Shown: piece after piece, positions 14,343-60,583 of the stretch | How positions within the stretch are numbered: position 1 is the stretch's first letter | How the letters are laid out: each line of letters starts with the position of its first letter | Assembly (NCBI GenBank): GCA_964409345.1 | Contig: CAYPCZ010000001.1 | Coordinates: 92,346 to 156,345, forward strand | Source of the DNA: an uncultured Flavobacterium sp. | Lineage (GTDB): Bacteria > Bacteroidota > Bacteroidia > Flavobacteriales > Flavobacteriaceae | Direction of reading: 5' to 3' | Length of the DNA stretch: 64,000 nucleotides | The notes under the pieces: generated by a model | What the model saw: the letters and a program-made list of their open reading frames with translations, nothing else | Database searches by the model: none | Told to the model about the DNA's origin: nothing | Translations under genes and position numbers: made by a program

Positions 14343-17300
14343 ATGAGTTTTTGTCACTTACACTGTCATTCCCAAGGTTCATTTGCTGTAAAAAACGATG
14401 GATGTGCCAAACCTGAAGATATGCTTAGTAGGGTAAGTGAGCTTAAGATGCCAGGTATAGCAATTACTGATCACGGATCAATGATTGAGATTATTTCTTC
14501 TTTAAATCTTGCACAAGAATATGAAGTTAAAGTAATTCCAGGTATGGAAGCTTATATGGTCCATGATGTCAATAAGATGTCTGGAAATTCAAGTTATCAC
14601 ATAACACTTCTTGCTATAAGTGATATAGGTCTTTCTAACTTATATAAACTTCATCATGAATCTTATAAATATTTTTACTATAAACCAAACATAGATTTTA
14701 ATTTACTTAATCAATATAATGAAGGTATTGTATGTCTTAGTGGGTGTCCGGCTGGTATGTTTTCTGAATATTTTAGATCAGGAAATATTCAAGAAGCAAT
14801 TAAGACTTTGACTAAGTTTAAAAATATATTTGGTGATAGGTTTTATGGAGAAATACAAAGAATTGGTATTCCAGAGTTAGATAGATTTGCTGATTCTTAT
14901 TACGATATTTTTATAGATCAAAACATAAAGCCAATAGCAACTAATGATGTTCATTTTGTACACAAAGAAGATAATACCTTGCATGATATAGCTATATGTA
15001 TTAATAAAGGTATGAAATTAGGAGACCCAAATCGAGCTTTAAAATCATGTCCAGAAACTTACTTAAAATCAATAGATGAAATAAAAGAAATATTCTCTGA
15101 CAAGATGGCTGCCGTTCACAATACAATGGAAGTATTTGAAAGATGTAATATAAGTCCATTGCGTAAACAGAATTTAATGCCCTCCTTCGTTGTTCCAGAT
15201 AATTTTGTTTCTAACAAACCAGACGACGAAAAGATATTTGATTATCTGGTTTACAAAACTAAACAAGGTCTTAAAGAACTTATTCCAAAAGAACAATTAA
15301 AAAAAGCAGTATCAAGATGTCAAGGTGAACTGTCTGTTATTAGAAGAATGGGCTTTTCATCTTACTTTTTAATTGTTGCAGATTTTATTGAATGGGCAAG
15401 AAGTAAAAATATACCAATTGGTCTTGGTAGGGGTTCAGCGGCTGGCTCTTTGGTTTGTTATTGTTTAAAAATTACAGCAGTTATTAATCCACTAGATCAT
15501 GGTCTTATATTTGAAAGATTTTTAAATGAAGGTCGTGTTGGTTCGCCGCCAGATATTGATATTGACGTATCTTATACAAACAGACAAGAAGTAATTAGTT
15601 ATGTAAGAGAAAAGTATGGTGAATCTCGAGTTGCTATAATAGGAACTATGGGTACATTTAAACCCAAGACATGTATTAGAGATGTTGCTAGAGTTTTAGG
15701 TTTGCCTGATTCTTTATCAGATCAAATCTCAAAGTGCATACCTGAACCAATTCAAGGTATTGATATGAACTTTCAGATGGCACTTAAGGAATCTGAAAAA
15801 TTTAAAAAGTTTTATGAACGTTCGCAAAATCCTCAAAATAAAGATGACGAAAAATTAACTAAACTTTTTAAATATGCCATGCAGCTTGAAGGAAATAAAA
15901 GACATATTTCAAAACATGCTGCTGGAGTTGTAATAGCTCCAGAAGGAAAAAGCGTCAGTGACTTTCTTCCAGTTATGATAGACTCAAAAGATAAATCAGT
16001 TTTTACTGCTGTAGATATGCATACCGTAGAAGATGCTGGTGCATTAAAAATGGACTTTTTAGGTCTTAAGACATTGGATAAAATTCACAATTGTATGTTA
16101 AGAACTGGTCACAAAGATGGTTATTACTATTTAGTTAAAAATTGTGATATTCATAATAAACAAGTTTATGACTCTGTATTCAGAGAACAAAATACAATAG
16201 GTATTTTTCAATTTGAAAAAGAAGGAATGCGGGGAGCATTAAAAGATTTTGGAGGTAATTGTTTTAATGATCTTGTTGTAGTAGTTTCAGCAATGAGACC
16301 AGGCCCAAAAGATGAAATACCAAAAATGGCAGATGTTAAGTGGGGAAGAAGAATTGCTGATTATGATCATCCAATGTTAGAGTCAATATTAGATGAGACT
16401 TATGGTGTCTGTATAGAAGAAAATTCACTTATTCAAATGTCAGATTTTTCTAATAAAAAAATCAAAGATATTGTTGTGGGAGATAAAATTATTTCTCATG
16501 ATGGTAGTTATAATTTAGTAAAAAGAAAAATAAATAATGGCAATAAGAAAATAATAAATTTAAAATTAAGAGATGGAAGAGAATTAAAATGTACTCCAGA
16601 CCACAAGATATTTACTCTTAATGGGTGGATTGAAGCACAAAATTGTAAGAATGAATTTATAGGAAGAAATATAAATTATAGAAATACTGGCAATAAATTA
16701 AGTATTCAAGAAGCAAGATTAATCGGTTATCTTACTGGAGATGGTTGTATTTCTGGTAAAAAAGATATTTCTTTTTATTCAACCTGTAAAGCAGTTATTG
16801 AAGATTTTCAAGATATGGTTGAGCAATTTGGTTCGAGATATACTGTTTATGAACGAGAAAGATCAATACAGATACAGGTGTATGCTGAACCAAATAATAA
16901 ATATAAATCTACCTCAACCGTACTTAAGCTTATGAGAGATTGTGAATTACAGAAATGTAATTCACATACAAAATTTGTTCCTACTATTATTCAAAATGCT
17001 GATCGAGATAGCGTTTTTCAGTATCTAGCATCATATTTTGATTGTGATGGTCATGTAAGTGAAAGTTGTGCTTTTATTAAAACGGTATCACTATTATTAG
17101 CAGAGCAAGTATCTGAATTGTTATTTTCTGTAGGAATTCCATGTTCTGTATATAGTACTTTTTATAAAGAATGTAAAGCATATCAAATAACTATTTATGA
17201 TGGTAATAAATTTGAATATATTAGAAAATATATGAAAAGAGATGTTCCATTATTAGTTGGAACTCCAGGTGGTGATGGTTATTTTCCAGTTTCTATAATT

Positions 17301-18827
17301 AAAAATATTTGTAAAAATAATAACATTTCTCAAAGAAAATTAACTTCACAATATGGAATTGAAAGATCATTATTAAATAGAACATATTATATTAAAAGAT
17401 ATGTTGCGAATAGATTATTAAAAGCTTTAAATATAACTGATTATGAAAATAAAATTTTTACATTAGTTGATGATATTTCTGAAGTCGGTACTGCAAATGT
17501 TTATGATTTAGAAATAGATAATGTTCACTCATTTATAGCTTCTGGAATTCCAGTACATAATTGTCTTTATCAGGAGCAAGCAATTAGAATATTTGTTGAA
17601 TTAGCCAACTTTTCTGCTGTTCAAGCTGATCTTGCTAGACGTGCTATAGGTAAAAAGAAACCAAAAGAAATGGAAGCATTAAGAAAAGACTTTTTTACTG
17701 GATGTTCTGATAATAAAATTGATAGACATATTGCACAAAAGATATTTGATAAAATTGAAAAGTTTGCATTTTATTCTTTTAATAAATCCCATGCCGGAGT
17801 TTATGCTGGAATAGCTTTTTTTACTGCGTATTGTAAAACATATCATCCTGCATACTATATGGCAGAGTGTTTTAACTTTGATAAATTTGATAAATTTAAG
17901 TTGTTTGTTGAAGATTGTAGAAGGATGGGTATTCCTGTTTTACCACCAGATATAAATTGTTCTAAAGAGCGTTTTAGTGTAGAAAAGTTTGATAAATCTT
18001 TACATGTTAAAAATCCATATTTTGATACTTTATATAAAGATATTGAGGATGGAACTGAATGTATTAGATTTGGATATGAGTATGTTAAAAATGTTTGTCA
18101 AGGTTTAGATTTACATTTAAGACACAAGTTACCATATACTACAATTATTGATTTTGTTCAGCGTAATGAAAAGTTAGATAAGTCATCTTTAGAGTGGTTA
18201 GCTAAAGTGGGTTTTTTTGATAGTCTTGGAATTTATAGAAATGATGTTTTATTTAATATTGATAAACTAATGTCTCTCCAGAAGACCAAGAGAAAAGATG
18301 TTAGACAAAGAGATATGATGGATTTTATGGATGAAGAAGAAAAAGAATCTATTATATCTTTAGAAAAAACAAATAAAGAAGATGATGATAAAATTAGATT
18401 AAGATGGGAAATTGAAGGTGGTGGCTATGGATTTACCAGTACTTTCCGAGATGCGTTTAAAGAATTTTTAAGTAGATCAAACGGTCTTTCTGTTAAAGAT
18501 ATTGTCAAAATGGAAAATTCATCATCAGTATCCTTTTTAGGAATGATATACAACTTAAAGCCATATAGAAAACCAGTATTTAATAAAGAAACAAATGAAA
18601 AATCAAACAAACTAATGTTCTTTTTTGGTATAGGAGATTTTGATGAACAAATTGATATTGGTTTGTTTGAAGATAGTATTACTAAGAGTTCTAAGATAAT
18701 GAATATTTCTATTTCTGACAATATGTTTGAAAAAGAAGATATTGTATTAGTAACAGGTAAAGTCGTAAATTATAGATTTATTACAGATAGTATAGAAGTA
18801 TTAGAACGAGTAAATAAGAAAAATTAA
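14343..18827 (+). CDS. dnaE: DNA polymerase III alpha subunit (DnaE) interrupted by an intein
   Basis: N-terminal PHP domain HLHCHSQGSF...ITDHG; GLGRGSAAGSLV; PDIDIDV; KMDFLGLKTL; conserved TYGV / LYQEQ motif split by an insert. Confidence 0.9.
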   Translation: MSFCHLHCHSQGSFAVKNDGCAKPEDMLSRVSELKMPGIAITDHGSMIEIISSLNLAQEYEVKVIPGMEAYMVHDVNKMSGNSSYHITLLAISDIGLSNLYKLHHESYKYFYYKPNIDFNLLNQYNEGIVCLSGCPAGMFSEYFRSGNIQEAIKTLTKFKNIFGDRFYGEIQRIGIPELDRFADSYYDIFIDQNIKPIATNDVHFVHKEDNTLHDIAICINKGMKLGDPNRALKSCPETYLKSIDEIKEIFSDKMAAVHNTMEVFERCNISPLRKQNLMPSFVVPDNFVSNKPDDEKIFDYLVYKTKQGLKELIPKEQLKKAVSRCQGELSVIRRMGFSSYFLIVADFIEWARSKNIPIGLGRGSAAGSLVCYCLKITAVINPLDHGLIFERFLNEGRVGSPPDIDIDVSYTNRQEVISYVREKYGESRVAIIGTMGTFKPKTCIRDVARVLGLPDSLSDQISKCIPEPIQGIDMNFQMALKESEKFKKFYERSQNPQNKDDEKLTKLFKYAMQLEGNKRHISKHAAGVVIAPEGKSVSDFLPVMIDSKDKSVFTAVDMHTVEDAGALKMDFLGLKTLDKIHNCMLRTGHKDGYYYLVKNCDIHNKQVYDSVFREQNTIGIFQFEKEGMRGALKDFGGNCFNDLVVVVSAMRPGPKDEIPKMADVKWGRRIADYDHPMLESILDETYGVCIEENSLIQMSDFSNKKIKDIVVGDKIISHDGSYNLVKRKINNGNKKIINLKLRDGRELKCTPDHKIFTLNGWIEAQNCKNEFIGRNINYRNTGNKLSIQEARLIGYLTGDGCISGKKDISFYSTCKAVIEDFQDMVEQFGSRYTVYERERSIQIQVYAEPNNKYKSTSTVLKLMRDCELQKCNSHTKFVPTIIQNADRDSVFQYLASYFDCDGHVSESCAFIKTVSLLLAEQVSELLFSVGIPCSVYSTFYKECKAYQITIYDGNKFEYIRKYMKRDVPLLVGTPGGDGYFPVSIIKNICKNNNISQRKLTSQYGIERSLLNRTYYIKRYVANRLLKALNITDYENKIFTLVDDISEVGTANVYDLEIDNVHSFIASGIPVHNCLYQEQAIRIFVELANFSAVQADLARRAIGKKKPKEMEALRKDFFTGCSDNKIDRHIAQKIFDKIEKFAFYSFNKSHAGVYAGIAFFTAYCKTYHPAYYMAECFNFDKFDKFKLFVEDCRRMGIPVLPPDINCSKERFSVEKFDKSLHVKNPYFDTLYKDIEDGTECIRFGYEYVKNVCQGLDLHLRHKLPYTTIIDFVQRNEKLDKSSLEWLAKVGFFDSLGIYRNDVLFNIDKLMSLQKTKRKDVRQRDMMDFMDEEEKESIISLEKTNKEDDDKIRLRWEIEGGGYGFTSTFRDAFKEFLSRSNGLSVKDIVKMENSSSVSFLGMIYNLKPYRKPVFNKETNEKSNKLMFFFGIGDFDEQIDIGLFEDSITKSSKIMNISISDNMFEKEDIVLVTGKVVNYRFITDSIEVLERVNKKN
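16410..17561 (+). mobile_element. DnaE intein with LAGLIDADG homing endonuclease domain (384 aa)
   Basis: Starts with Cys right after ...ETYGV and ends ...GIPVHN followed by +1 Cys (CLYQEQ). Two LAGLIDADG-like blocks (LIGYLTGDGC, YLASYFDCDGH). Excision restores the DnaE TYGV-(C)LYQEQ motif. Confidence 0.85.
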
Positions 18828-39369: not shown

Positions 39370-40290
39370 TCAGTAATTTTTCCAGATTTGAAATTTTTCT
39401 ATTCTATTTCCGACCTGACGTTTAGTTATGAAAAAATCAATAGAACTTTCAAGAGTAATTTTGTTGAATTTTAATTCTTTTAAAGAATCCAAAATTACTT
39501 GAGGAGTTGACTCAGTAGTTAGCAATAACACCTTTACTTTATTCTTGTTTAAGCTATATATATCATGGGTTATTCTGTCTGTAAATTGAAATGCTTTGTA
39601 ATACCACCTTAGAATGGATATATTTTTTATATCAGTGGTGCATGTTAAATCATAAAAAACAAAATCTCCTTTATAGAATCCTAATATATTTTCTGAAACC
39701 TTAACGCAGTTAATTTTAGTTAAAATTTTATAAAATAAAAATAAGTTATTTTCATCTATTAGATTAAGATTCTTATTTGGATTCGATTTAAGGGGTTTTG
39801 TTTTTTTATTAGTAGGAACACTAATATGCAACATTGTAGGGCGGTGCCAACAAAATGTAATCGTTTTAGAATGGGATATTTGGGATATAGCAATAAACCA
39901 TGAAACGAAATATTCCGGATCATTCTTTAATAGTTTAAAAAGCTTATCTTCACTATTTCTGTTAGCATAAGGTTTATAGTGATTAAGAATTGCTTTTATA
40001 TTATCTTTTAACGTTTCAAAATTTGTAGTTTTTATTTTTTTAAACGTTGTGTATATTTCTGGAGAAAAATCTGATATTGTTATCGAATTTTCTATAAAGT
40101 TTTTGTGTTTTATAAAATTTAATAAAAACCACAAATTACCAGATGTAGGTAAATAAACATGCTTAAAGTACTTTGGGAGATGTTGTTTTAACATCTCCCA
40201 AAGTAAGTCTTCTCTATTTAATTCTGGATGATTAAATATAGGTTTTATATTAAGATGAGTATATCTAGCATAATTCATATTAATTTTCAA
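39370..40290 (-). CDS. hypothetical protein (possible degenerate Dam-like fold)
   Basis: 306 aa; YLPTSGNLWFL occupies the place of the Dam EPFxGxG motif and FVFYDLTC the place of DPPY; catalytic motifs not intact. Confidence 0.45.
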   Translation of the reverse strand: MKINMNYARYTHLNIKPIFNHPELNREDLLWEMLKQHLPKYFKHVYLPTSGNLWFLLNFIKHKNFIENSITISDFSPEIYTTFKKIKTTNFETLKDNIKAILNHYKPYANRNSEDKLFKLLKNDPEYFVSWFIAISQISHSKTITFCWHRPTMLHISVPTNKKTKPLKSNPNKNLNLIDENNLFLFYKILTKINCVKVSENILGFYKGDFVFYDLTCTTDIKNISILRWYYKAFQFTDRITHDIYSLNKNKVKVLLLTTESTPQVILDSLKELKFNKITLESSIDFFITKRQVGNRIEKFQIWKNY

Positions 40291-41116
40291 TATAAATTTG
40301 TGGCATTTGAATAATAGAACTTATTGAATTATATGTTCTTTCTTTGATGTAAACACCATCACCTTCTCTGGCTCCGCCGGAATTGGTATTTCCTTCTATT
40401 GTGGTGAATGTTTTTTTACTTGTGTTATTTTTGATTATAACTCCAGTATGACCGCTAGCACCTGAAAAAGTCATAACAAAAAAAGATGATGGAATTGCTA
40501 ATCTATGACTTGTTATTAAGTAACCTTTGCTTCTTGCCCAATTTCTATAACCTTGTACATGACCACTTTTTTGAAGTACTAAACTTCTAGGTCTTTCCCA
40601 AACAACTTTTATACCCAATTCTTGTGCAGCTTTCATATAACACCACATAACAAAAGCCATACACCAAGGAGCTTTACTATTTTTAAGGCCAACGGTATCT
40701 AAGTATTCATTTACTCTTTTTCCACTATTATTTCCAACTTCTTTTACACCAACTTCACCTTGTGCAAATTTAATAATAGATTTTCCTAAAGGAGAGAGTT
40801 TGGTAGTGCTAGCATTAGAATTTGTAATAGGCGAGGAGTAAATACCATTTGGTTTATCTGGAGTAAGCAAGGTAGATGGACTTACTTTTTCATAAGCAAA
40901 TAGTAAATCCCAAGTATCTTGGTCTACAATGCCATTGACAGAGAGTAAATCACCGTCTAGTGCATAAGTGGCATTTATCTGAAATTCCCACACCTTGCTT
41001 TTTGTTTCAGCACCATAATCATTATCAATTTTGCACACAAATCCCAATTGACTTAATCTGGTTTGTAGCTTTCCAACTTTTTTATTTTTATCACCTACTT
41101 GAAGAACGATAGACAT
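40280..41116 (-). CDS. endolysin: peptidoglycan-binding domain + CHAP amidase/peptidase
   Basis: PG_binding_1-like VGKLQTRLSQLGF...DYGAETKSKVWEFQ; CHAP catalytic Cys APWCMAFVMWCY and His GHTGVII. Confidence 0.75.
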   Translation of the reverse strand: MSIVLQVGDKNKKVGKLQTRLSQLGFVCKIDNDYGAETKSKVWEFQINATYALDGDLLSVNGIVDQDTWDLLFAYEKVSPSTLLTPDKPNGIYSSPITNSNASTTKLSPLGKSIIKFAQGEVGVKEVGNNSGKRVNEYLDTVGLKNSKAPWCMAFVMWCYMKAAQELGIKVVWERPRSLVLQKSGHVQGYRNWARSKGYLITSHRLAIPSSFFVMTFSGASGHTGVIIKNNTSKKTFTTIEGNTNSGGAREGDGVYIKERTYNSISSIIQMPQIYIEN

Positions 41117-41895: not shown

Positions 41896-42276
41896 TTAAT
41901 ATTGAATCGGTTGAGGGATATTGACCGAAGCACCTAAAGAAATTAGAGGGTCAACATCTCTATATTCTGTAGGTGTAACTACAGGAACAGTAACAGTGTT
42001 TACTGGTTGCATTGCAATTTGGTTTCGAGGATCATTTTCATCTCCAACCATAGGTGGAGGACAAAATGGAACACCTAAACTTCTTACTGTATTTCTTGTG
42101 CCACAGGAGTTTCCATTTCTGTCAAAGTTTTCACCAGGTGCAGCTCCTGGATTTCTTAGACCGATGGTGGTTTGTCCCACAGATGGAACACAGCTTTTAA
42201 CTACTCGCTCGGCACAACCAGATAATGTAAAGCCAAAACAGCTAGCTACTATAACAACACAAACAAACTTCTTCAT
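41896..42276 (-). CDS. lipoprotein (Pro/Gly-rich mature part)
   Basis: Signal peptide plus lipobox MKKFVCVVIVASCFGFTLSGC; AGGAG RBS; GC content clearly above neighbours. Confidence 0.6.
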   Translation of the reverse strand: MKKFVCVVIVASCFGFTLSGCAERVVKSCVPSVGQTTIGLRNPGAAPGENFDRNGNSCGTRNTVRSLGVPFCPPPMVGDENDPRNQIAMQPVNTVTVPVVTPTEYRDVDPLISLGASVNIPQPIQY

Positions 42277-44689: not shown

Positions 44690-45043
44690 TTATTTAACAT
44701 TATTTAAATCTTCTGCTATACCGCCATATAAATCTTCACTAAAGAGCATTCCTTCTTCTTTTGAAGAATCTCCAAATATAATTTGATTAGCTTTTTTTGC
44801 TATTTGATAGCCTTTTTTACGATTAACAAAGTTATCATCACTTGTGATAAAACCTTGAATTATACTATCTTTTTTATATGAAGAAATATCTCCATTATGT
44901 AAAATATAAGCTATAGCAAAGCAGTTATGATGTCTGCGTCCACATATAACTAAACCATTTTTTATATTTTTAGGTTGATGAGAATATTCTTTATTATTTT
45001 TAAGATGAATAGCAGCACAAAGAATATATGGAGTTTTATTCAT
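44690..45043 (-). CDS. hypothetical protein
   Basis: 117-aa ORF; AGGAAA upstream. Confidence 0.5.
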   Translation of the reverse strand: MNKTPYILCAAIHLKNNKEYSHQPKNIKNGLVICGRRHHNCFAIAYILHNGDISSYKKDSIIQGFITSDDNFVNRKKGYQIAKKANQIIFGDSSKEEGMLFSEDLYGGIAEDLNNVK

Positions 45044-45060: not shown

Positions 45061-45099
45061 TAAAAAATGCCAGTCACGGAAAGATCATTTCCCACTGGC
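45061..45099 (-). terminator. rho-independent terminator closing the ncRNA locus
   Basis: Minus strand reads GCCAGTGGGAAATGATCTTTCCGTGACTGGC followed by ATTTTTTATTTT. Confidence 0.65.
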
Positions 45100-45458
45100 T
45101 CTTAATCCTCAGATTAAGTAAATAAATTTTGGAGAATCAGGTTAGTGATACCTGATTCTCCAAGGAAGAAACTGTTTGCTTTGACGAGCTTGGGCACTAC
45201 CCCAAGCCGGCTCGCCGCACATGAATCTTCCAAACATTTTGAGCAGGGCTGGATTATATTTTACCAGCTTACAGCGATTTAACTGTTTCCCTCTACTGGC
45301 CATTTCGCCAACGGATGATCAACTCCGCAGCACGCACCAATATTGTAAACAGCCGTGTCCTTGGTTTACATAACCTTTGTCTCGAGCCGCCAGTTATATA
45401 GCTGTCGTAACCATTGAATAACAGATGTGTCTTAACCACATCGCCTGCTCAAACTAAT
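45100..45458 (-). ncRNA. unassigned structured RNA immediately 3' of tmRNA
   Basis: ORF-free on both strands and GC well above the window background. Long-range helix 45443-45453 / 45238-45249 encloses several local hairpins. A perfect 12-bp hairpin lies at 45131-45161. Confidence 0.35.
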
Positions 45459-45860
45459 TGGTGGAGGCGGCGGGAGTCGAACCCGCGTCCAAAACGGTGT
45501 ATCTAATATTTTCGTTACAAGTTTTTTCTATTTTTGTGATTCGTGCTATTCTTACCAAAATAGACAAAATCTAAAAAGCACTAGACTCATTTATTTTTCG
45601 TTCTAGCAGTCAGCCGTTTATAACCTGTTAGACTTATTCTGTAGTTTATTATACTTTGATATTACCACAGACATCTTGTATCAAAGCAGTCATTGCTTCT
45701 TAGGCAGCGACGAGTTCACTACGAACTGCTGGAGCAGTTGCAGGGAACATATCAATTACGTTGGCAATTGAGAGTTTGCATACAACTTTAACGAGCATAG
45801 CATACTTTCTCGACTTGCAAATATTAAATCTCACTATCCTGTCGAAACCCTTACGCCCCC
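45459..45860 (-). ncRNA. ssrA: tmRNA (SsrA), one-piece, CCA encoded
   Basis: 5' GGGGGCGTAAGGGTTTCGACAGGAT and 3' GGACGCGGGTTCGACTCCCGCCGCCTCCACCA. Acceptor stem has G3:U70. Internal tag frame is GCC...GCT GCC TAA. Confidence 0.9.
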
Positions 45861-46151
45861 AAATTTTCAAAGAACAAATAAAACAAACAATCTAAGGTTG
45901 GACATTACTTCCAACGATACTGAAGTTTTCCTCTAACGGGGTTGCTCACACCTAGTCTTCAGTTCCAGCAACTCTAATGTGTCTATGATTTCCACATCGC
46001 TTAAATTGTTTGGAAAAGTCTTTATAGTGCCATTTAATCAAGGAGGGTTTGTTTTATATTAAATGAGGTAATAGTAACAAACGAACCATAAAGACTTTTT
46101 TGATTTAACAATAAGCAGCTCCGCGACAGTGTTGCTTATTGTTGGAAGTGA

Positions 46152-46568
46152 CTAATTAACTATTTGACCAGCTACAACTCCAACTGTGCCAATTCTAAAT
46201 ACTCTTACACCTGGTTCAGGGTCTGTGTCTAAATCATATACAAAATAACTATGCGCTGTTTTGCCATTTGCATCAACAGTTGAATGAACTTCGTTTATAG
46301 GATAAGTCATTTGGTTTCTAGCTAATGATTGATTGACTATACTTTCTAATCCAGTAGCATTAGAAGCTGTATCAGGAACAGAGAATGGTTCAGATGCTGG
46401 AATAGGATTTGGTGATCCTTGCTGTGTCTGAATTCTACTATGACTGCGAGTTAAAAAAGATATATTTGTATTATGTGTTACTGCTCCTTGAGCAGTTGTA
46501 TGACTGACTGTATTATATTGACAGCCTGATAGTGCAACACAGATATAACAAAAAAGAATTTTATTCAT
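46152..46568 (-). CDS. lipoprotein
   Basis: Start trimmed to MNKILFCYICVALSGC (lipobox LSGC) with GGAG RBS 8 nt upstream. Confidence 0.6.
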   Translation of the reverse strand: MNKILFCYICVALSGCQYNTVSHTTAQGAVTHNTNISFLTRSHSRIQTQQGSPNPIPASEPFSVPDTASNATGLESIVNQSLARNQMTYPINEVHSTVDANGKTAHSYFVYDLDTDPEPGVRVFRIGTVGVVAGQIVN

Positions 46569-46599
46569 ATAAATACTCCAAGGTTGCATTTATTTTAAA

Positions 46600-50857: not shown

Positions 50858-53800
50858 TTATAAATCATAACCTACAGCTATGATTTTATCTTCATCTTCG
50901 TTATTGTTTGATGAAGAATCTTCATCGACATTTAAAAAGTTACCATATCTTTTCATAATGTCGTCATATTCAATCATCTTACCTTCAGAATTAAGAACAA
51001 ATTCATAGTCCCAAAAATCTTTATGAATATCACCTTGTTGAGGATTATGTTCTTCTCCATCATAAATACGGAGTCTGTCAGTTGAGTGATCTAAAAGTAC
51101 TTCATCACATGCATCAAAAAAGTCAATATATTTTACCGTAGTCTTAACTTTTTTATATGGACATGATATAGCAACTGAATTATTTACACCAATAATCCAG
51201 GCACAAAGTCTTAAAAGCTTTGTAGCTTTTTGTGTCATTGTTTTTACATATTTTACTTCATCCTTTGTTGGTTTGATTTTTTTGTAATAGACTTTACTAT
51301 CTCTTAGAATTATTTTTTGTTTTCCAAGTTTAGCAAATCTACCAATCTTGTCATTTTCTAATGCGACATGAACATCAGAATAAAGCTTTTTAATAATCGG
51401 TTGTAGTTTATCAATTTGCTCTATACCTGTTTCACCAGTTAAAAGATTATCTGAAAATGCAGAATTGTACATACGTTGTACTTCTTTTGCATTTGCATCT
51501 TCAATCATTCGCCTTCCAACAATATCATATTCTGTTGAAGACCAATGTTTAATATTTCCTAATACTTCGTTTATTTCAATCATTGCATAGTAGGCAGCTA
51601 ATTTGGAATCATATTTAGAAAGATCTTTTCCTAATTCCACACACTTGTATGGGTTTTCAGCATTACCTAAGAGTTGACAATTTTTAATTGCATCAAGAAA
51701 TACACATCTATCTCCTAATCTCAATGCCCTACCTAGTCGTTGTATCATTTTGGTATCTGATTTACCGCCTGCACCCATTATAACAACGTTTACGGAGGGT
51801 AAATCAATTCCTTCATCATACAGAGATGTTGCAATGATGACTTTTGTTTTTTGATTTCTAAAACCTTCCATTATACTTCTTCTGGTGGCAGCATCGAATG
51901 TTCCATTTACTAAAACAATTTCTTGTGGTTTTGTATCTCCGCCTAAAAGTTTCCAAAGAAAGAATCCATGAATTTTTTCTTTAATAATAATTAATACAGT
52001 CTCATTTTGAGAAAGTGCTTTTAATGTAGCAGCTACAATGATTGCATTTCTATGATCATTAAAGATAATTCCTACTTTAGACCTTCTATGGTAGTTGTTC
52101 TTTTCATCTAGTGCTTTATCGTAGAATCTTTCATCTAGCTGTGTATCTACAGGATACATGATAATATCTGGCTTTGACAGCCAGCCTCTTTCAACAAGTT
52201 CTTTTGAGCTTATTTTATTGATAACTGGACCAGTTGTTGCTTCTAGTAAGATACCCAATCCATCCGCTCTCCAAGGGGTCGCAGTTAATCCCATTCTAAA
52301 TGGAGCTGGACATGACTGAGCAACATAAAACCAACTTTCAGAACCACTATGGTGAGTTTCATCAAAGATTGCAGTTTTTCTTGATTCTAAAACAAGTTTA
52401 TATTCAGGCTTAACTTCAAAGTCTTTTCTTTTACCATGATAAGCTAGTGACTGTATCATAGCTACAATAATAAACTTAAAACTTCCATCTTCATTTTTGT
52501 ATGTTTCTTCTCCGCCGCCTAAAACACCAACCATATCTGGACCAAAAATTTCAGAGAATACCCTTTCAGTTTGAACCATAAGATCTCTGGTGTGTACAAA
52601 AAAGATTGCTGGTTGATTTATTTTTGCAATACTATCAGCAGCTAAGATTGTATTGTGACAAATAAACCCATTACCAAAGAATGATTTAGATTCAGGAATT
52701 TCCCAGTCTACAATTTCTGCGGCAGATGCTTCTATCATACTAATTTTATCAAAGTAATAATTTTGTCCAGTACTTTGACAAGATATATTTTCTCCATCTA
52801 GTAATTTTTGGAATAATATAAAAGATGTATCTGAAACAGTAAGATAATTATTGTTTCGTTTAGACAATATACCAAAATTGAGAAGTGCAATTTGCACAAT
52901 TCTTGCTATTTCATTATTGTAAAAGATTTTTAAATTGTTATTTTGATTATCTTCATCTGTTTTAATAAACATACCACGCAAAAAAGCTGCTACAATATTT
53001 TTTGGTGCTGTACGAATTATTCTTGGGAATATGTCTTCACCACAGTTAAAAACTTTTCTATAAATTGTATTTAAAATAGCATCTTCGCTATAAATAGCAT
53101 CTTCGCTATCAGTAATTTTCTCTAAAAAGTCATAAAATATTTTTTCCCAGGATTTTTTTCTTTTAATATTTCCAATATCATTTGTTAAAAATCCAAAAAA
53201 GGTTGCCATATCTTCTGTGATTTCTTCTGGAAAAACTTTAAAATCTTTATTTAATTCATCTAGTAATTCAAGTGGCAGATATGTGGTTTTACCAAAGACA
53301 GATTGACTATGCTGAATAGCTACAATTGTTTTTAAAGTAATGTCTTCTAATTTAATCCAGTCAATTGAACCGTCTTTTTTAAGTTCTAATATCATCTGAT
53401 CTTCAGAACCACCAAGTTCATATCCATTTTTGGTTTTGATATTAATGATGGTATGAGTACCATCATTATAAAAAGATCGAGTAGTTTCAAAGTTTCCGTT
53501 TCTATTTATTAACATAACAGAGCATGGCTCAGCCTGATCAATTTTACCATGATCATATTCTGACATATACTCCATACCCTTGATGGTAAAGTTTACTGTA
53601 TTTTTCTTAACACATTTACCACCGCCAGTACCTAGCTGTATAATACCTGCATTCTTGATACCGTAGTTATTTTGACCTTCTAAAAAAGCATCTGAAGCAG
53701 CTTCTTGATAGTCTCGTAAATGAATTGAAGTTGGAATAGGATTATTGTGGGCTGGATAATCAATATTATCTACTTCTTCAAATGGAATCATTCCATCATT

Positions 53801-53989
53801 GAGGCATTTCTTTGCAATATGCAATACACCCCTTGGAAATCGCATCTTTTCTTTGTCTACAAGGGACTTATTTATTGTTGTTCCAGTTCTTGGATCAATA
53901 TATTGATATGAAAGGTTATTATGAAGGATATGAGGCACTTGGTAGGTATCTTCGATGTATACCCATGCATTTTCAATTCTTAGTATCAT
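50858..53989 (-). CDS. superfamily 2 DEXH helicase (UvsW/RAD25/type III Res-like) interrupted by an intein
   Basis: LRDYQ, GTGGGK|...|T split Walker A, DETHH, GLTATPWR, ATSLYDEGIDLPSVN, QRLGRALR. Confidence 0.8.
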   Translation of the reverse strand: MILRIENAWVYIEDTYQVPHILHNNLSYQYIDPRTGTTINKSLVDKEKMRFPRGVLHIAKKCLNDGMIPFEEVDNIDYPAHNNPIPTSIHLRDYQEAASDAFLEGQNNYGIKNAGIIQLGTGGGKCVKKNTVNFTIKGMEYMSEYDHGKIDQAEPCSVMLINRNGNFETTRSFYNDGTHTIINIKTKNGYELGGSEDQMILELKKDGSIDWIKLEDITLKTIVAIQHSQSVFGKTTYLPLELLDELNKDFKVFPEEITEDMATFFGFLTNDIGNIKRKKSWEKIFYDFLEKITDSEDAIYSEDAILNTIYRKVFNCGEDIFPRIIRTAPKNIVAAFLRGMFIKTDEDNQNNNLKIFYNNEIARIVQIALLNFGILSKRNNNYLTVSDTSFILFQKLLDGENISCQSTGQNYYFDKISMIEASAAEIVDWEIPESKSFFGNGFICHNTILAADSIAKINQPAIFFVHTRDLMVQTERVFSEIFGPDMVGVLGGGEETYKNEDGSFKFIIVAMIQSLAYHGKRKDFEVKPEYKLVLESRKTAIFDETHHSGSESWFYVAQSCPAPFRMGLTATPWRADGLGILLEATTGPVINKISSKELVERGWLSKPDIIMYPVDTQLDERFYDKALDEKNNYHRRSKVGIIFNDHRNAIIVAATLKALSQNETVLIIIKEKIHGFFLWKLLGGDTKPQEIVLVNGTFDAATRRSIMEGFRNQKTKVIIATSLYDEGIDLPSVNVVIMGAGGKSDTKMIQRLGRALRLGDRCVFLDAIKNCQLLGNAENPYKCVELGKDLSKYDSKLAAYYAMIEINEVLGNIKHWSSTEYDIVGRRMIEDANAKEVQRMYNSAFSDNLLTGETGIEQIDKLQPIIKKLYSDVHVALENDKIGRFAKLGKQKIILRDSKVYYKKIKPTKDEVKYVKTMTQKATKLLRLCAWIIGVNNSVAISCPYKKVKTTVKYIDFFDACDEVLLDHSTDRLRIYDGEEHNPQQGDIHKDFWDYEFVLNSEGKMIEYDDIMKRYGNFLNVDEDSSSNNNEDEDKIIAVGYDL
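52652..53614 (-). mobile_element. intein (321 aa) inserted in the helicase P-loop, with degenerate LAGLIDADG-like blocks
   Basis: Begins with Cys right after GTGGGK and ends GFICHN followed by +1 Thr, restoring GTGGGKT. Internal FFGFLTNDIG and AAFLRGMFIKTDED blocks. Confidence 0.8.
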
Positions 53990-56847: not shown

Positions 56848-56888
56848 AATCAAGTGCCAGATAGATAATTGCTATCTGGCACTTGATT
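56848..56888 (-). terminator. rho-independent terminator
   Basis: 17-bp inverted repeat AATCAAGTGCCAGATAG / CTATCTGGCACTTGATT directly after the stop of the 56894 gene, followed by a T-rich tract on the minus strand. Confidence 0.65.
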
Positions 56889-56893
56889 AAATT

Positions 56894-57538
56894 TTATGCG
56901 TTGGCATTTTCCTGTTTATCATTTCGGCTCTGTAGCTTGAGCTTTCTGATACGATTGACTACACCTCTACACATTCCTCCGCCACGAATATCAATGCCAA
57001 ATCCTTTCATGGCCTCTTCTACATCTTTTACATGAATTCCTTCTTTGATGTTAAGTGTAAAGGATGTATCTTCGTTCTTGTTGATAATAACTTTTACAAT
57101 TTCTTCGTTATCATCAATGAAGAAAATATCATATCGGTGACTTGCTCCGGTACGATTTCGAGATACACCTTTACCTCCACCCTTTACGTTGCGAAGGGTT
57201 TTGATTGGAAGTCCAAGATCTTTGCGCTTTTCATTATAACGCTGTAGAATACCTTCCAACTCATTTTGGTGTTCAAGTTGTTTTGTCTTCTTTGATTCTT
57301 TAAGAAGTTCGATTTGATCGTCAATGGTTTTGAGTTCAATAGTTAAAAACTCATCAGCATTTTTGATTTGATCTTCGAACGGCTTAAGTTCTTCGGCAAA
57401 GTTTTCTTCGCGTTTAATTAGCTCTTCTTGTTCCTTGCTTTTAATTGCATTTCTTGTTTCTTTCATGATAGCTTCAAGCTGATCAAGTGAAATGCCTTCA
57501 AGGCTACCTAGAGCTTCGGTAAAGTTTACATCTGACAT
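56894..57538 (-). CDS. hypothetical coiled-coil protein, paralog A (GGG-x-CRGVVNRI C-terminal motif)
   Basis: 214 aa; shares SLDQLEAIMKETRNAIKS, LKPFEDQI, YNEKRKDLGL and GGGMCRGVVNRI blocks with the next gene. Confidence 0.55.
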   Translation of the reverse strand: MSDVNFTEALGSLEGISLDQLEAIMKETRNAIKSKEQEELIKREENFAEELKPFEDQIKNADEFLTIELKTIDDQIELLKESKKTKQLEHQNELEGILQRYNEKRKDLGLPIKTLRNVKGGGKGVSRNRTGASHRYDIFFIDDNEEIVKVIINKNEDTSFTLNIKEGIHVKDVEEAMKGFGIDIRGGGMCRGVVNRIRKLKLQSRNDKQENANA

Positions 57539-57612
57539 TATTACTTTCTCCTGTTCTGCAATTTATAACTACGTTCTACATTTATCTTATTGGCTAAATA
57601 AGATAATAAAGC

Positions 57613-57646
57613 AAATGGGTAGTGAGAAAAATCTCACTACCCATTT
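57613..57646 (-). terminator. rho-independent terminator between the paralogs
   Basis: AAATGGGTAGTGAGA / TCTCACTACCCATTT 15-bp stem; T-rich tract follows on the minus strand. Confidence 0.7.
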
Positions 57647-57661
57647 TAAATCATTGCGATT

Positions 57662-58381
57662 TTATTCGCCCTGATCCTGACCTTCGTTGCCTTCACCTTC
57701 GTTGCCTTCACCCTGATTGTCAGTGTTGTCAGGTTCGGTACCCTCGGGGACGGTTCCACCCTTCTGAGCTTTCTGAATTTTGCTATTATACTGCGAGTAA
57801 ATGCGATTGAGGACTCCACGACCACGACCGCCGCCATCATCCTGAATATTCTGAGCTTTGATAAGATGCTCACGAACATCTTCAATCTTGGCGCGACCAT
57901 CTTCACCAATGGCAATAGTAACAAAGGTTTCTGGCTTGTCTTTCACACCAATCTCAGCAGTGTGATTTTCAACATTGACATCAATATGCCAGCTCATCTG
58001 AGGTCCAGCAGATGCCGAACGACTTGCTTTGAGGCCATGTTCTTTGCGCTTCTCGTTAAGCTTTTCACGAGCTTCATCGAGTTCCTGTTTTGCTTCTGCT
58101 AGCTTTGCTTTGTACTGCTCACGAATAGTCTTGAGCTTTTCATTCATGCTCTTCTTGAAGTTGTTATACTTCTCCTGAACCTGAGTGAAATTTTCTTCAT
58201 AAGGCTTGACTGCTTCAAGGGCTGCTGGATCAACTTCCGCCGCCGCTGATTTAGTCTGCGACTTAATATGCTTCTTAGTCTGTTCCATGAGTTTCTTGAG
58301 GTCATCAAGAGACATCTCACTAAACATACTTGGATCAAAAGCTGCTGCGGCAGCCTGTTCCTGATTCTGAGTATCAGACAT
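57662..58381 (-). CDS. hypothetical coiled-coil protein, paralog B (GGGRGRGVLNRI motif, NEGEG repeat tail)
   Basis: 239 aa; AAAGGAG RBS; markedly GC-richer than the window; 15-nt perfect tandem duplication at 57681-57710. Confidence 0.55.
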   Translation of the reverse strand: MSDTQNQEQAAAAAFDPSMFSEMSLDDLKKLMEQTKKHIKSQTKSAAAEVDPAALEAVKPYEENFTQVQEKYNNFKKSMNEKLKTIREQYKAKLAEAKQELDEAREKLNEKRKEHGLKASRSASAGPQMSWHIDVNVENHTAEIGVKDKPETFVTIAIGEDGRAKIEDVREHLIKAQNIQDDGGGRGRGVLNRIYSQYNSKIQKAQKGGTVPEGTEPDNTDNQGEGNEGEGNEGQDQGE

Positions 58382-58624
58382 CTTACTACTCCTTTTTCCG
58401 TTGTTTTTTTATTGGTGGCTAACCAATTTTATATATTAGGTTATGTTTAATAATATTTAAAATCTCAAGAAAAAATTCAAAAAATCTGCGATTATTTTTT
58501 TACATTGGATTAACCCTTTCAATTTCAATGTTTTATATATTGGAAAGATTGAAAATTATTTTTTGTTTAGTTGCTAAATTGTAACAATTAGTTATTTTGT
58601 TCTAATTTTTTGAAACAGGAATGA

Positions 58625-60280: not shown

Positions 60281-60583
60281 TTAATCAAAAGATATTAGAT
60301 GTTCGTTTTCAAAGAGGTATATATCAAACAAAACACTTGATATATACCTCTTTTCATCTCCTATAAATAATTCCATATCTAATGATTTAGACTTTTTTAA
60401 ATCATTGATTTGAGATATACTTAAAAAAGTTGATTTTCTTTTTCCTTCTGATATATAGTAAACTTTTTTGTAAATTTTATGTTTATTTTTACTTATATCT
60501 CTTGCTTTTGGAATATAATTTAATCTTTTAAGCACACAGTCATTCTGACCATGAGTGACATAATATGTTTCATGATTAATCAT
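60281..60583 (-). CDS. hypothetical protein
   Basis: 100-aa ORF. Confidence 0.45.
   Translation of the reverse strand: MINHETYYVTHGQNDCVLKRLNYIPKARDISKNKHKIYKKVYYISEGKRKSTFLSISQINDLKKSKSLDMELFIGDEKRYISSVLFDIYLFENEHLISFD

What the first reader, a model, noticed from the sequence alone, without database searches (positions are those of the whole stretch)
45100..45458. Unassigned, highly structured ~360-nt RNA fused to the 3' side of the phage tmRNA
This stretch has no ORF of 60 aa or more on either strand, and stop codons are frequent in all frames I read. By eye its GC content is far above the AT-rich background. It lies between the tmRNA CCA end (45459) and a canonical minus-strand terminator (45061-45099), so it is probably co-transcribed with the tmRNA.

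On the minus strand I can pair several helices:
- TTTGAGCAGGC (45453-45443) with GCCCTGCTCAAA (45249-45238), an 11-bp closing helix with one bulge that encloses about 190 nt.
- Inside that: hairpin GATGTG-GTTAAGA-CACATC.
- ACTGGC...GCCAGT.
- GGCTGTTT...AAACAGTT.
- GCGGA-GTTGATCA-TCCGT.
- GCTGG-(11 nt)-CCAGC.
- Outside it: CGAGC(CGGC)TTGGG-GTAGTG-CCCAAGCTCG and a perfect 12-bp hairpin GGAGAATCAGGT-ATCACTA-ACCTGATTCTCC (45131-45161).

I found none of the signatures I know for RNase P RNA (GGAAAGUCC, ACAGAACCCGGCUUA), SRP/4.5S RNA or a 6S-type single long hairpin.

It could be a new phage ncRNA class. It could also be a divergent member of the large ornate phage-associated RNAs that cluster with tRNA genes (GOLLD/ROOL-like).
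Basis: partly seen in the sequence, partly recalled or inferred. Interest (0 to 1): 0.8.

Follow-up and report, generated by a model that had tools for sequence, protein, structure and literature searches.

The report
Orphan structured RNA behind phage tmRNA
A 360-base, G+C-rich, strongly folding non-coding stretch really does sit directly behind a phage tmRNA gene and matches no known RNA or protein family, but no relative was found, so a new RNA class is plausible and cannot yet be tested.

Summary
Window 45100-45458 (minus strand) lies between a full tmRNA (45459-45860) and a minus-strand terminator (45061-45099). It has no ORF of 60 aa or more. Its GC is 0.43-0.50, against 0.29 for the window.

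It folds far better than shuffles (z -5.4) and ranks 2nd of 212 windows. G+C is concentrated in the stems (0.56), while the loops sit at background (0.26).

No Rfam family matches, including GOLLD, ROOL, RNase P, group I intron and riboswitches. There is no protein similarity, no second copy of the tmRNA 3' end, and no DNA homologue in any collection I could search. The phage is a deep singleton, so covariation cannot be tested.

About 85 other phage tmRNA genes lack such a trailer.

New finding: the first hairpin (GCGAUGUGG...AGACACAU) also occurs in the 5' leader. A 22-nt leader-trailer complementarity brackets the tmRNA, and the trailer's closing helix covers the tmRNA CCA end.

Best reading: a selected, structured 3' part of the tmRNA transcript that is probably released as a stable RNA. 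Its function is inferred only. The GOLLD/ROOL idea is not supported.

The parts
45459..45860 (-). One-piece tmRNA gene with encoded CCA end. Tag ANVIDMFPATAPAVRSELVAA as I read it from the Rfam alignment; ARAGORN reports APAVRSELVAA.
   Evidence: ARAGORN; RF00023, 145.9 bits, model 1-374.
45238..45453 (-). Trailer domain 1: a 216-nt multibranched domain closed by the 10-bp helix P1 (45453-45444 with 45247-45238). P1 can extend to 18 nt (45461-45444 with 45247-45230), which covers the tmRNA terminal CCA.
   Evidence: z -3.4, 1 of 200 shuffles; inverted repeat I3.
45424..45444 (-). Hairpin H1, trailer copy: GCGAUGUGG-UUA-AGACACAU(C), 6-bp stem, pair probability 1.00.
45164..45231 (-). Trailer domain 2: a 68-nt G+C-rich irregular hairpin (GGAAGA...UCUUCC, with apical UUGGG-GUAGUG-CCCAA).
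45129..45163 (-). Perfect 14-bp hairpin with a 7-nt loop, directly abutting domain 2. It may be an ordinary transcript-end hairpin, because similar long perfect hairpins occur elsewhere in the window.
   Evidence: (I4).
45101..45118 (-). 7-bp hairpin CUUAAUC-UGAG-GAUUAAG, one base before the terminator.
45061..45099 (-). Intrinsic terminator (GCCAGU.GGAAA-UGAUC-UUUCC...ACUGGC followed by AUUUUUUAUUUU), 17 nt before the start codon of the next gene.
   Evidence: Read directly; folded.
45861..46151 (-). 291-nt non-coding leader upstream of the tmRNA, moderately structured (z -3.4). It has its own closing helix (46012-46000 with 45896-45884).
   Evidence: I13; no Rfam family.
45977..46000 (-). 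Hairpin H1, leader copy: GCGAUGUGG-AAAUCAU-AGACACAU. It is the only other such hairpin in the 64 kb.
   Evidence: expected 0.22 matches; 0 of 100 shuffles reach the observed count.
45999..46020 (-). Leader arm of a 22-nt, 82% complementary long-range pairing. Its partner is trailer 45223-45244. The pairing would bracket the rest of the leader, the tmRNA and trailer domain 1.
   Evidence: I2. Not significant against shuffles on its own.
44690..45043 (-). Downstream gene, 117 aa, PF26092 (T4_Y16D family).

Best explanation
The stretch is the structured, non-coding 3' part of the tmRNA primary transcript of a large AT-rich lytic-type phage. Its base pairing is maintained by selection.

**Proposed mechanism.**
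- Transcription starts upstream of the tmRNA and runs through the tmRNA and the 360-nt trailer.
- It stops at the terminator at 45061-45099.
- Maturation of the tmRNA CCA end cuts the trailer off.
- The trailer starts 5 nt later with a tight closing helix and ends in four consecutive hairpins, so it would persist as a separate stable RNA.

**Link to the tmRNA.** A hairpin shared with the 5' leader, and leader-trailer complementarity, tie both flanks to the tmRNA. I therefore think the element first acts in cis, organising or timing processing of the tmRNA precursor much as a processing stalk does. The released 216-nt multibranched domain may then act in trans as a protein-binding or decoy RNA.

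**Shown:** position, lack of coding capacity, excess folding, G+C confined to stems, absence from known families.

**Inferred:** co-transcription, processing, stability and any function.
For: - It abuts the CCA end on the same strand as all neighbouring genes, and a terminator with a minus-strand U-run closes the unit.
- No ORF of 60 aa or more, and no protein similarity in three searches.
- Folding z -5.4, rank 2 of 212 windows.
- G+C is 0.56 in paired positions and 0.255 in unpaired positions. The unpaired value equals the phage background, and the split is more extreme than about 197 of 200 shuffles. This is expected when stems are under selection in a 29% GC genome.
- Its GC (0.43-0.50 in 200-nt windows, 0.44 over the 360 nt) is at or above that of the functional tmRNA (0.40), which argues against a decaying remnant.
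- Hairpin H1 is duplicated in the leader and the trailer and occurs nowhere else in the 64 kb.
- A 22-nt leader-trailer complementarity exists, and the P1 extension covers the CCA end.
- About 85 other phage tmRNA genes have no such G+C-rich ORF-free trailer, so this is not generic tmRNA flank.
Against: - No homologue was found, so no helix has covariation support.
- The plus strand folds as well.
- Much of the z-score comes from simple hairpins that also occur elsewhere in this phage.
- The central helices of domain 1 are ambiguous.
- Leader-trailer similarity beyond H1 is not significant, and the complementarity is not significant against shuffles.
- There is no expression data.
- No promoter could be located for the unit.
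Confidence: 0.45

Rival explanations
1. Precursor-only element. The leader and trailer exist solely to fold, protect, anti-terminate or direct nuclease processing of the tmRNA precursor, like rRNA processing stalks or nut/box sites. The trailer is degraded after cleavage and has no life of its own.
For: - H1 hairpin on both sides of the tmRNA.
- 22-nt leader-trailer complementarity, and P1 covering the CCA end.
- A boxA-like UGUUCUUUGAAAA just before the tmRNA 5' end (read; resemblance recalled from memory, not tested).
Against: - 360 nt at 44-50% GC, with a multibranched domain and a second G+C-rich domain, is much more than the other phage tmRNA genes sampled need.
- The complementarity is not significant against shuffles.
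Confidence: 0.2
2. Cis-regulatory leader (riboswitch or attenuator) for the downstream T4_Y16D-family gene. The multibranched domain senses a ligand or factor, and the terminator 17 nt before the start codon is the expression platform.
For: - The terminator lies directly before the RBS of gene 44690-45043.
- The segment GCCAGU-AGA-GGGAAA (45300-45286) mimics the terminator 5' strand GCCAGUGGGAAA, and ACUGGC (45394-45389) is complementary to it (read).
- Precedent: a glutamine riboswitch placed at the 3' side of a phage tmRNA gene (PMC9004378).
Against: - No riboswitch, T-box or leader family matches at E<=10.
- Three stable hairpins lie between the putative sensor and the terminator, which no simple switching model uses.
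- 360 nt is long for a riboswitch.
Confidence: 0.15
3. Non-functional foreign DNA: a piece of a higher-GC genome captured together with the tmRNA, or the scar of an element that integrated at the tmRNA 3' end. It has not yet decayed to phage composition.
For: - The tmRNA 3' end is a classic integration site (my own knowledge).
- The GC jump begins near the tmRNA end.
- Other G+C-rich islands exist in the window.
Against: - No second copy of the tmRNA 3' end, even with 3 mismatches.
- No integrase was noted among the neighbours annotated; integrase was not specifically searched for.
- No match in phage, plasmid, genome or metagenome searches.
- No protein remnant.
- Loops are already at phage composition while stems are G+C-rich, which random foreign DNA would not show.
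Confidence: 0.1
4. A highly divergent member of a known RNA family (GOLLD, ROOL, RNase P RNA, group I intron, or a second or permuted tmRNA) that the models miss.
For: - Size is close to that of RNase P RNA or a small group I intron.
- It is adjacent to tRNA-like genes, as GOLLD and ROOL are (PMC6582537).
- A sub-threshold permuted-tmRNA hit of 33.6 bits against a gathering score of 47.
Against: - No hit from any of these families at E<=10.
- The permuted-tmRNA hit is carried by the real tmRNA T-arm.
- No similarity to the tmRNA itself.
- Neither flanking gene looks split.
Confidence: 0.04
5. A DNA-level element that works as double-stranded or extruded DNA rather than as RNA, such as a replication origin, a packaging site or a recombination site.
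For: - Both strands fold equally well.
- Inverted repeats are abundant.
Against: - No iterons or direct repeats.
- The position inside a transcription unit, between a stable-RNA gene and its terminator, and the G+C-in-stems pattern, fit RNA better.
Confidence: 0.05

Closest known systems
Phage T4 stable RNAs species 1 and 2 (rnaC, rnaD) in the tRNA gene cluster (from my own knowledge)
   Same: Phage-encoded, non-coding, structured RNAs of unknown function. They are transcribed in one unit with tRNA-type genes and released by the tRNA processing machinery. The neighbouring gene here belongs to a T4 family (PF26092), and its closest homologue also sits in a tRNA cluster.
   Different: The T4 RNAs are about 120-140 nt. 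This element is 360 nt and is linked to a tmRNA rather than to tRNAs. blastn against 50,697 phage records gave no match to any record.
GOLLD (RF01998) and ROOL (RF03087) large ornate RNAs
   Same: Large structured RNAs of unknown function that occur in phages and prophages next to tRNA genes (PMC6582537; PMC12286853).
   Different: There is no match to either covariance model, even at E<=10. The element is about 360 nt, against roughly 600-800 nt. No homologues exist to define a family.
tmRNA gene with a glutamine (glnA) riboswitch at its 3' side in OM43 phage Melnitz and Pelagibacter phage Mosig (PMC9004378)
   Same: A phage tmRNA gene directly followed by a second structured RNA element on the same strand.
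   Different: That tmRNA is two-piece and the element is a known, short riboswitch. Here the tmRNA is one-piece, and the element is much longer and matches no riboswitch model.
Leader-trailer processing stalks of rRNA operons, and 3' external transcribed spacers of tRNA operons that act as sRNA sponges (from my own knowledge)
   Same: Sequences on both sides of a stable RNA are complementary. They are removed during maturation, and some released spacers have functions of their own.
   Different: Those stalks are long, near-perfect helices cut by RNase III. Here the complementarity is 22 nt at 82% and competes with local helices.

Membership tests
GOLLD / ROOL | Match to the Rfam covariance model at or above the gathering score. 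| tested here: not met
   No hit at the gathering score or at E<=10 on 611 nt.
GOLLD / ROOL | Length of roughly 600-800 nt with the family's multi-domain architecture. | tested here: not met
   The non-coding stretch is 359 nt between the tmRNA and the terminator.
GOLLD / ROOL | Located in a phage or prophage next to tRNA-type genes. | tested here: met
   It abuts a tmRNA, and tRNAs lie 3.5 kb away. This feature is not specific to the family.
Bacterial RNase P RNA | Covariance-model match and the conserved P4 motifs. | tested here: not met
   No RNase P family at E<=10. Only a loose AGAGGGAAAC resemblance was seen by eye.
Group I intron | Model match and insertion within a gene whose exons flank it. 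| tested here: not met
   No RF00028 hit. The tmRNA is complete and the flanking ORFs are not obviously split.
tmRNA (second copy, or coding piece of a permuted tmRNA) | Model match at or above the gathering score, a tRNA-like domain, and a tag reading frame. | tested here: not met
   The RF04321 partial hit scores 33.6 bits, below 47, and is carried by the real T-arm. There is no local similarity to the tmRNA. No plausible tag ORF appears in any frame.
Riboswitch / T-box / attenuator leader | Known aptamer model upstream of a terminator or RBS-sequestering platform. | tested here: inconclusive
   No aptamer model matches. A terminator does sit 17 nt before the next gene's start codon. A novel aptamer cannot be excluded.
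Structured functional RNA in general | Base pairs maintained by compensatory substitutions across homologues. | not testable with these tools
   No homologue was found in any search.
Integrated element or att scar at the tmRNA 3' end | Direct repeat of the tmRNA 3' end at the far boundary, and an integrase nearby. | tested here: not met
   The 16-nt tmRNA end occurs only once in the 64 kb, even with 3 mismatches. No integrase was noted among the neighbours annotated; integrase was not specifically searched for.

The most novel reading that the evidence does not exclude
The trailer, with its partial echo in the leader, is the founding example of a new class of large structured phage RNA that is physically coupled to a tmRNA. 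It would be released by tmRNA maturation and act in trans, for example as a decoy or scaffold for host ribosome-rescue, RNA-decay or anti-phage factors. Alternatively, it could be a new kind of RNA element that controls how and when a phage tmRNA is matured.
Probability: 0.3. Interest if true: 0.7.

Novelty: new variant of a known kind. Interest (0 to 1): 0.45.

Why it matters
Phage-encoded tmRNAs are rare. One study found them in 2.3% of 18,146 phage genomes (PMC9004378), and their role in infection is unknown. A selected, complex RNA built into the same transcript would be a handle on that role. It could show how the phage controls tmRNA maturation, or it could be a second RNA delivered with the tmRNA. 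It would also add to the small set of large phage RNAs of unknown function next to tRNA-type genes (T4 species 1 and 2, GOLLD, ROOL). At present it is a single sequence from one uncultured phage, so its value is as a lead, not as a result.

Tried and rejected
**Homologue searches, all negative.**
- blastn (word size 11) of the trailer and of the leader against 50,697 phage records, and of the whole unit against plasmids, where only the tmRNA T-arm matched.
- Exact 21-26-mers from the trailer in IMG/VR.
- A pseudo-protein trick that scans six degenerate 24-nt patterns at once, run on viral, genome and metagenome collections.
- The tmRNA 5' 23-mer in IMG/VR.
- A gapped tmRNA pattern in bacterial genomes.
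- A leader hairpin plus tmRNA pattern in IMG/VR.
- A tmRNA-end plus GCGATGTGG pattern in metagenomes. This gave 13 hits, all in unrelated high-GC DNA. Four of the six true tmRNA ends are followed by a partial copy of the tmRNA 3' end, which looks like an integration-site repeat.
- nhmmer of the trailer against the 126 loci fetched by then, 1.2 Mb.

**Synteny route.**
- Homologues of the downstream Y16D gene are at most 56% identical and not syntenic.
- The nearest helicase relatives are 44% identical, with no tRNA or tmRNA within 10 kb.

**Protein and pseudogene route.**
- Pfam on nine stop-free segments from five of the six frames.
- A concatenation of eight stop-free segments against 5.8 billion proteins.
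- The longest open frame against 1.84 billion representatives.
- All were empty.

**Ideas considered and dropped.**
- Degenerate duplicate of the tmRNA: no similarity.
- Integration scar: no repeat of the tmRNA end.
- tRNA-like acceptor/T minihelix for the 14-bp hairpin: the loop and closing pair do not fit, by eye.
- General paralogy of leader and trailer. It looked attractive by eye (shared UAGAGGRAAAC, AUCGYUG, UGUUUG), but chained alignment is not significant (155 of 1000 shuffles and 25 of 294 genomic controls reach the score). By my estimate, an 11-mer shared with one mismatch is about what chance predicts for sequences of this length. Only the H1 hairpin repeat stands.
- Trailer-tmRNA antisense pairing: not enriched.
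- The two G+C-rich lipoprotein genes that precede the tRNA and tmRNA genes are not paralogues.

**Not attempted.**
- A covariance model of the full element was not built. The tool description implies that about 360 positions would exceed the calibration limit, and no collection can be searched with a model anyway.

Full report
**1. The observation**

The window carries a complete one-piece tmRNA gene on the minus strand at 45459-45860. ARAGORN finds it, and Rfam RF00023 matches it at 145.9 bits over model positions 1-374, ending in the encoded CCA at 45459.

The next 359 bases on the same strand (45458 down to 45100) hold no ORF of 60 aa or more. The longest ORFs are 53, 50 and 48 aa.

GC is 0.425-0.50 here, against 0.19-0.30 in the flanks and 0.292 for the whole window. 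This is the largest non-coding G+C island in the 64 kb.

A hairpin followed by AUUUUUUAUUUU at 45061-45099 closes the stretch. The U-run is on the minus strand only. Seventeen bases later the next gene starts (44690-45043, 117 aa, PF26092 T4_Y16D family).

The "12-bp" hairpin is in fact 14 bp.

**2. Is it more than chance?**

- The minus-strand RNA folds to -125.3 kcal/mol, against -95 +/- 5.6 for dinucleotide shuffles. That is z -5.4, with no shuffle as good among 100 or 200.
- I folded 212 windows of 360 nt spaced 300 nt apart along the minus strand of the 64-kb window. This one has by far the lowest energy and the second most extreme z-score.
- G+C is unevenly placed: 0.56 in paired positions and 0.255 in unpaired positions. 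The unpaired value is the phage background, and the split is more extreme than about 197 of 200 shuffles. This is the pattern expected when stems are held by selection in an AT-rich genome.

Three cautions apply.

- The plus strand folds just as well (z -6.3). The strand is therefore assigned from context: gene orientation and terminator polarity.
- The 3' half is a run of four hairpins including the terminator, and it contributes most of the signal (z -6.5). The 216-nt multibranched 5' domain alone gives z -3.4, with 1 of 200 shuffles as good.
- The inner helices of that domain have pair probabilities of only 0.5-0.7, and alternative pairings exist.

Long perfect hairpins also occur at three other places in the window. 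The 14-bp hairpin may therefore be an ordinary transcript-end hairpin of this phage.

**3. What it is not**

*Known RNA families.* No Rfam 15 family reaches its gathering score in the window except the tmRNA and three tRNAs. With permissive filters and E<=10 on 611 nt there is still nothing for GOLLD, ROOL, RNase P, group I or II introns, 6S, SRP or any riboswitch.

- The best hit is cow-rumen-4 at 25.7 bits, against a gathering score of 48.5, on the 14-bp hairpin.
- A sub-threshold permuted-tmRNA hit (33.6 bits against 47) is carried by the true T-arm.

*A decayed tmRNA copy.* There is no local similarity to the tmRNA and no tag-like frame.

*A pseudogene.* Stop-free segments of the frame translations hit no Pfam family. 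Nothing was found among 5.8 billion proteins or 1.84 billion cluster representatives.

*An integration scar with a recognisable boundary.* The tmRNA 3' end occurs only once in the window, even with three mismatches.

**4. Relatives**

I found none.

- blastn against phage and plasmid records gave nothing.
- Exact and degenerate pattern scans of IMG/VR, JGI metagenomes and one genome per GTDB species gave nothing.
- nhmmer against every locus fetched by that point was negative.

The phage itself is a deep singleton. The window belongs to a 159-kb contig present in NCBI and in one Logan run. The nearest homologue of the neighbouring gene is 56% identical, and the nearest homologue of the helicase is 44% identical. 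Those distant relatives have no tRNA or tmRNA in the 20 kb inspected.

A useful negative control came from 120 IMG/VR loci that share the tmRNA 3' end. About 85 of them hold a tmRNA with enough downstream sequence. Nearly all are followed by ORFs within 0-300 nt, and none shows a G+C excess in the trailer (largest difference +0.09, against about +0.15 to +0.2 here). The trailer is not a generic property of phage tmRNA genes.

**5. New anatomy**

The tmRNA also has a 291-nt non-coding leader (45861-46151). It is moderately structured (z -3.4) and matches no Rfam family.

The first hairpin of the trailer, GCGAUGUGG-loop-AGACACAU (45444-45425), has exactly one other copy in the 64 kb. That copy is in the leader at 46000-45977, on the same strand and with a different loop. 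About 0.22 matches are expected by chance, and no shuffle of 100 reaches the observed count.

In both places the hairpin follows, after a single C, the 5' strand of a long closing helix:

- Leader: 46012-46000 with 45896-45884.
- Trailer: 45453-45444 with 45247-45238.

The trailer segment 45223-45247 can pair in two ways. It can pair with the start of the trailer over 18 nt, which includes the tmRNA terminal CCA. Or it can pair with leader 45999-46020 over 22 nt at 82%, which would bracket the tmRNA (I3 and I2).

I tested whether leader and trailer are paralogues throughout, and they are not demonstrably so. Local and chained alignments are within the shuffle range. The shared UAGAGGRAAAC block is, by my estimate, about what chance predicts for sequences of this length. 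Only the hairpin repeat is solid. The complementarity is suggestive.

**6. How it most likely works**

*Shown.* A non-coding, strongly and selectively base-paired stretch occupies the whole space between the tmRNA CCA end and a same-strand terminator. One of its hairpins recurs in the leader.

*Inferred.*
- The unit is one transcript.
- Maturation of the tmRNA 3' end releases the trailer. In E. coli, from my own knowledge, this is an endonucleolytic cut followed by exonuclease trimming.
- The trailer's closing helix 5 nt from the cut, and its 3' hairpins, make it stable.
- The shared hairpin and the leader-trailer pairing act on the precursor.
- The released multibranched domain may act in trans.

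I put 0.45 on [quoted passage not shown].

The rivals:

| Rival | Confidence |
|---|---|
| Precursor-only processing element | 0.20 |
| Attenuator or riboswitch for the Y16D-family gene | 0.15 |
| Undecayed foreign DNA | 0.10 |
| DNA-level element | 0.05 |
| Divergent known RNA family | 0.04 |

For the attenuator rival, the terminator sits right before the gene's RBS, and there is a precedent of a glutamine riboswitch beside a phage tmRNA (PMC9004378).

**7. Comparison with what is known**

By position the element resembles other phage stable RNAs associated with tRNA-type genes:

- T4 species 1 and 2 RNAs (my own knowledge).
- GOLLD and ROOL, which lie in tRNA clusters of phages and prophages (PMC6582537; PMC12286853).
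- The tmRNA-riboswitch pair of phage Melnitz.

It is not a member of any of these families. The model matches were tested and failed, and the size does not fit.

**8. Verdict**

"Unassigned structured RNA" stands. "GOLLD/ROOL-like" does not. "New class" is untestable for lack of homologues.
- Interest is moderate at 0.45. The element is a real oddity, with intrinsic signs of selection and an unusual link to a phage tmRNA, but it rests on one sequence.

Noticed in passing
window 45861-46151 (minus strand): The 291-nt non-coding leader of the tmRNA is itself structured (z -3.4). It has a 15-bp hairpin (46099-46085 with 46028-46014) and a closed multi-hairpin domain. No Rfam family matches it.
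   Followed up: partly
window 40000-40359, especially 40169-40205: This is the most extreme fold z-score of the 212 scanned windows (about -10.9 at GC 0.23). It contains a perfect 16-bp inverted repeat with a 5-nt loop, plus 17-nt and 14-nt inverted repeats. It lies inside ORF 39370-40290, next to the CHAP endolysin gene.
   Followed up: partly
window 56848-56888 and 60311-60353: Two further long perfect hairpins (at least 15 and 16 bp). One lies just after the stop of ORF 56894-57538. This suggests that the phage uses very strong hairpins at transcript ends.
   Followed up: no
window 50858-53989 (minus strand): An SF2 helicase of 1043 aa carries a sub-threshold intein splicing domain match (residues 173-446; 24.8 bits against a cutoff of 35.8). 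Its relatives are about 680 aa and lack the insert.
   Followed up: partly
window 14343-18827 (plus strand): The DNA polymerase ORF is 1494 aa. Polymerase profile matches cover mainly residues 1-700, and a helicase-like or unknown segment follows. It may be a fusion or contain an intein.
   Followed up: no
window 45696-45764 (tmRNA tag region): The tag is unusually long and atypical. From the Rfam alignment I read the resume codon as GCC, giving ANVIDMFPATAPAVRSELVAA. ARAGORN reports only APAVRSELVAA. No bacterial genome in the species collection matched a gapped pattern built from this tmRNA's two ends.
   Followed up: partly
window 46152-46589 and 41896-42276 (minus strand): Two lipoprotein genes (lipobox LSGC) with raised GC each sit immediately upstream of a tRNA-type gene, the tmRNA and tRNA-Asn respectively. 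They are not paralogues.
   Followed up: yes
L002 617-1338: The closest homologue (56% identity) of the downstream T4_Y16D-family gene lies between tRNA-Met and tRNA-Leu in another phage contig. This gene family seems to travel with tRNA clusters.
   Followed up: partly
window 57601-58400: The most G+C-rich island of the window (up to 0.51) coincides with ORF 57662-58381 (239 aa), which has no PHROG match.
   Followed up: no
L001 (Logan contig from run SRR10083315), position 1 = window 45487: The 8.9-kb Logan contig carrying this region is 100% identical over its first 444 nt, which overlap the trailer. It breaks inside the tmRNA T-arm, possibly because another tmRNA in the sample (perhaps the host's) shares that 31-mer.
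   Followed up: no
L030 10007-11218: An IMG/VR phage contig with a permuted tmRNA has no ORF of 60 aa or more in the 820 nt of locus that remain after the gene. G+C is not raised there.
   Followed up: no
L129, L134, L137, L138: In these high-GC metagenome contigs, the tmRNA end is followed about 90 nt later by a partial copy of the tmRNA 3' end. I read this as an integration-site repeat. They are unrelated to the window.
   Followed up: no
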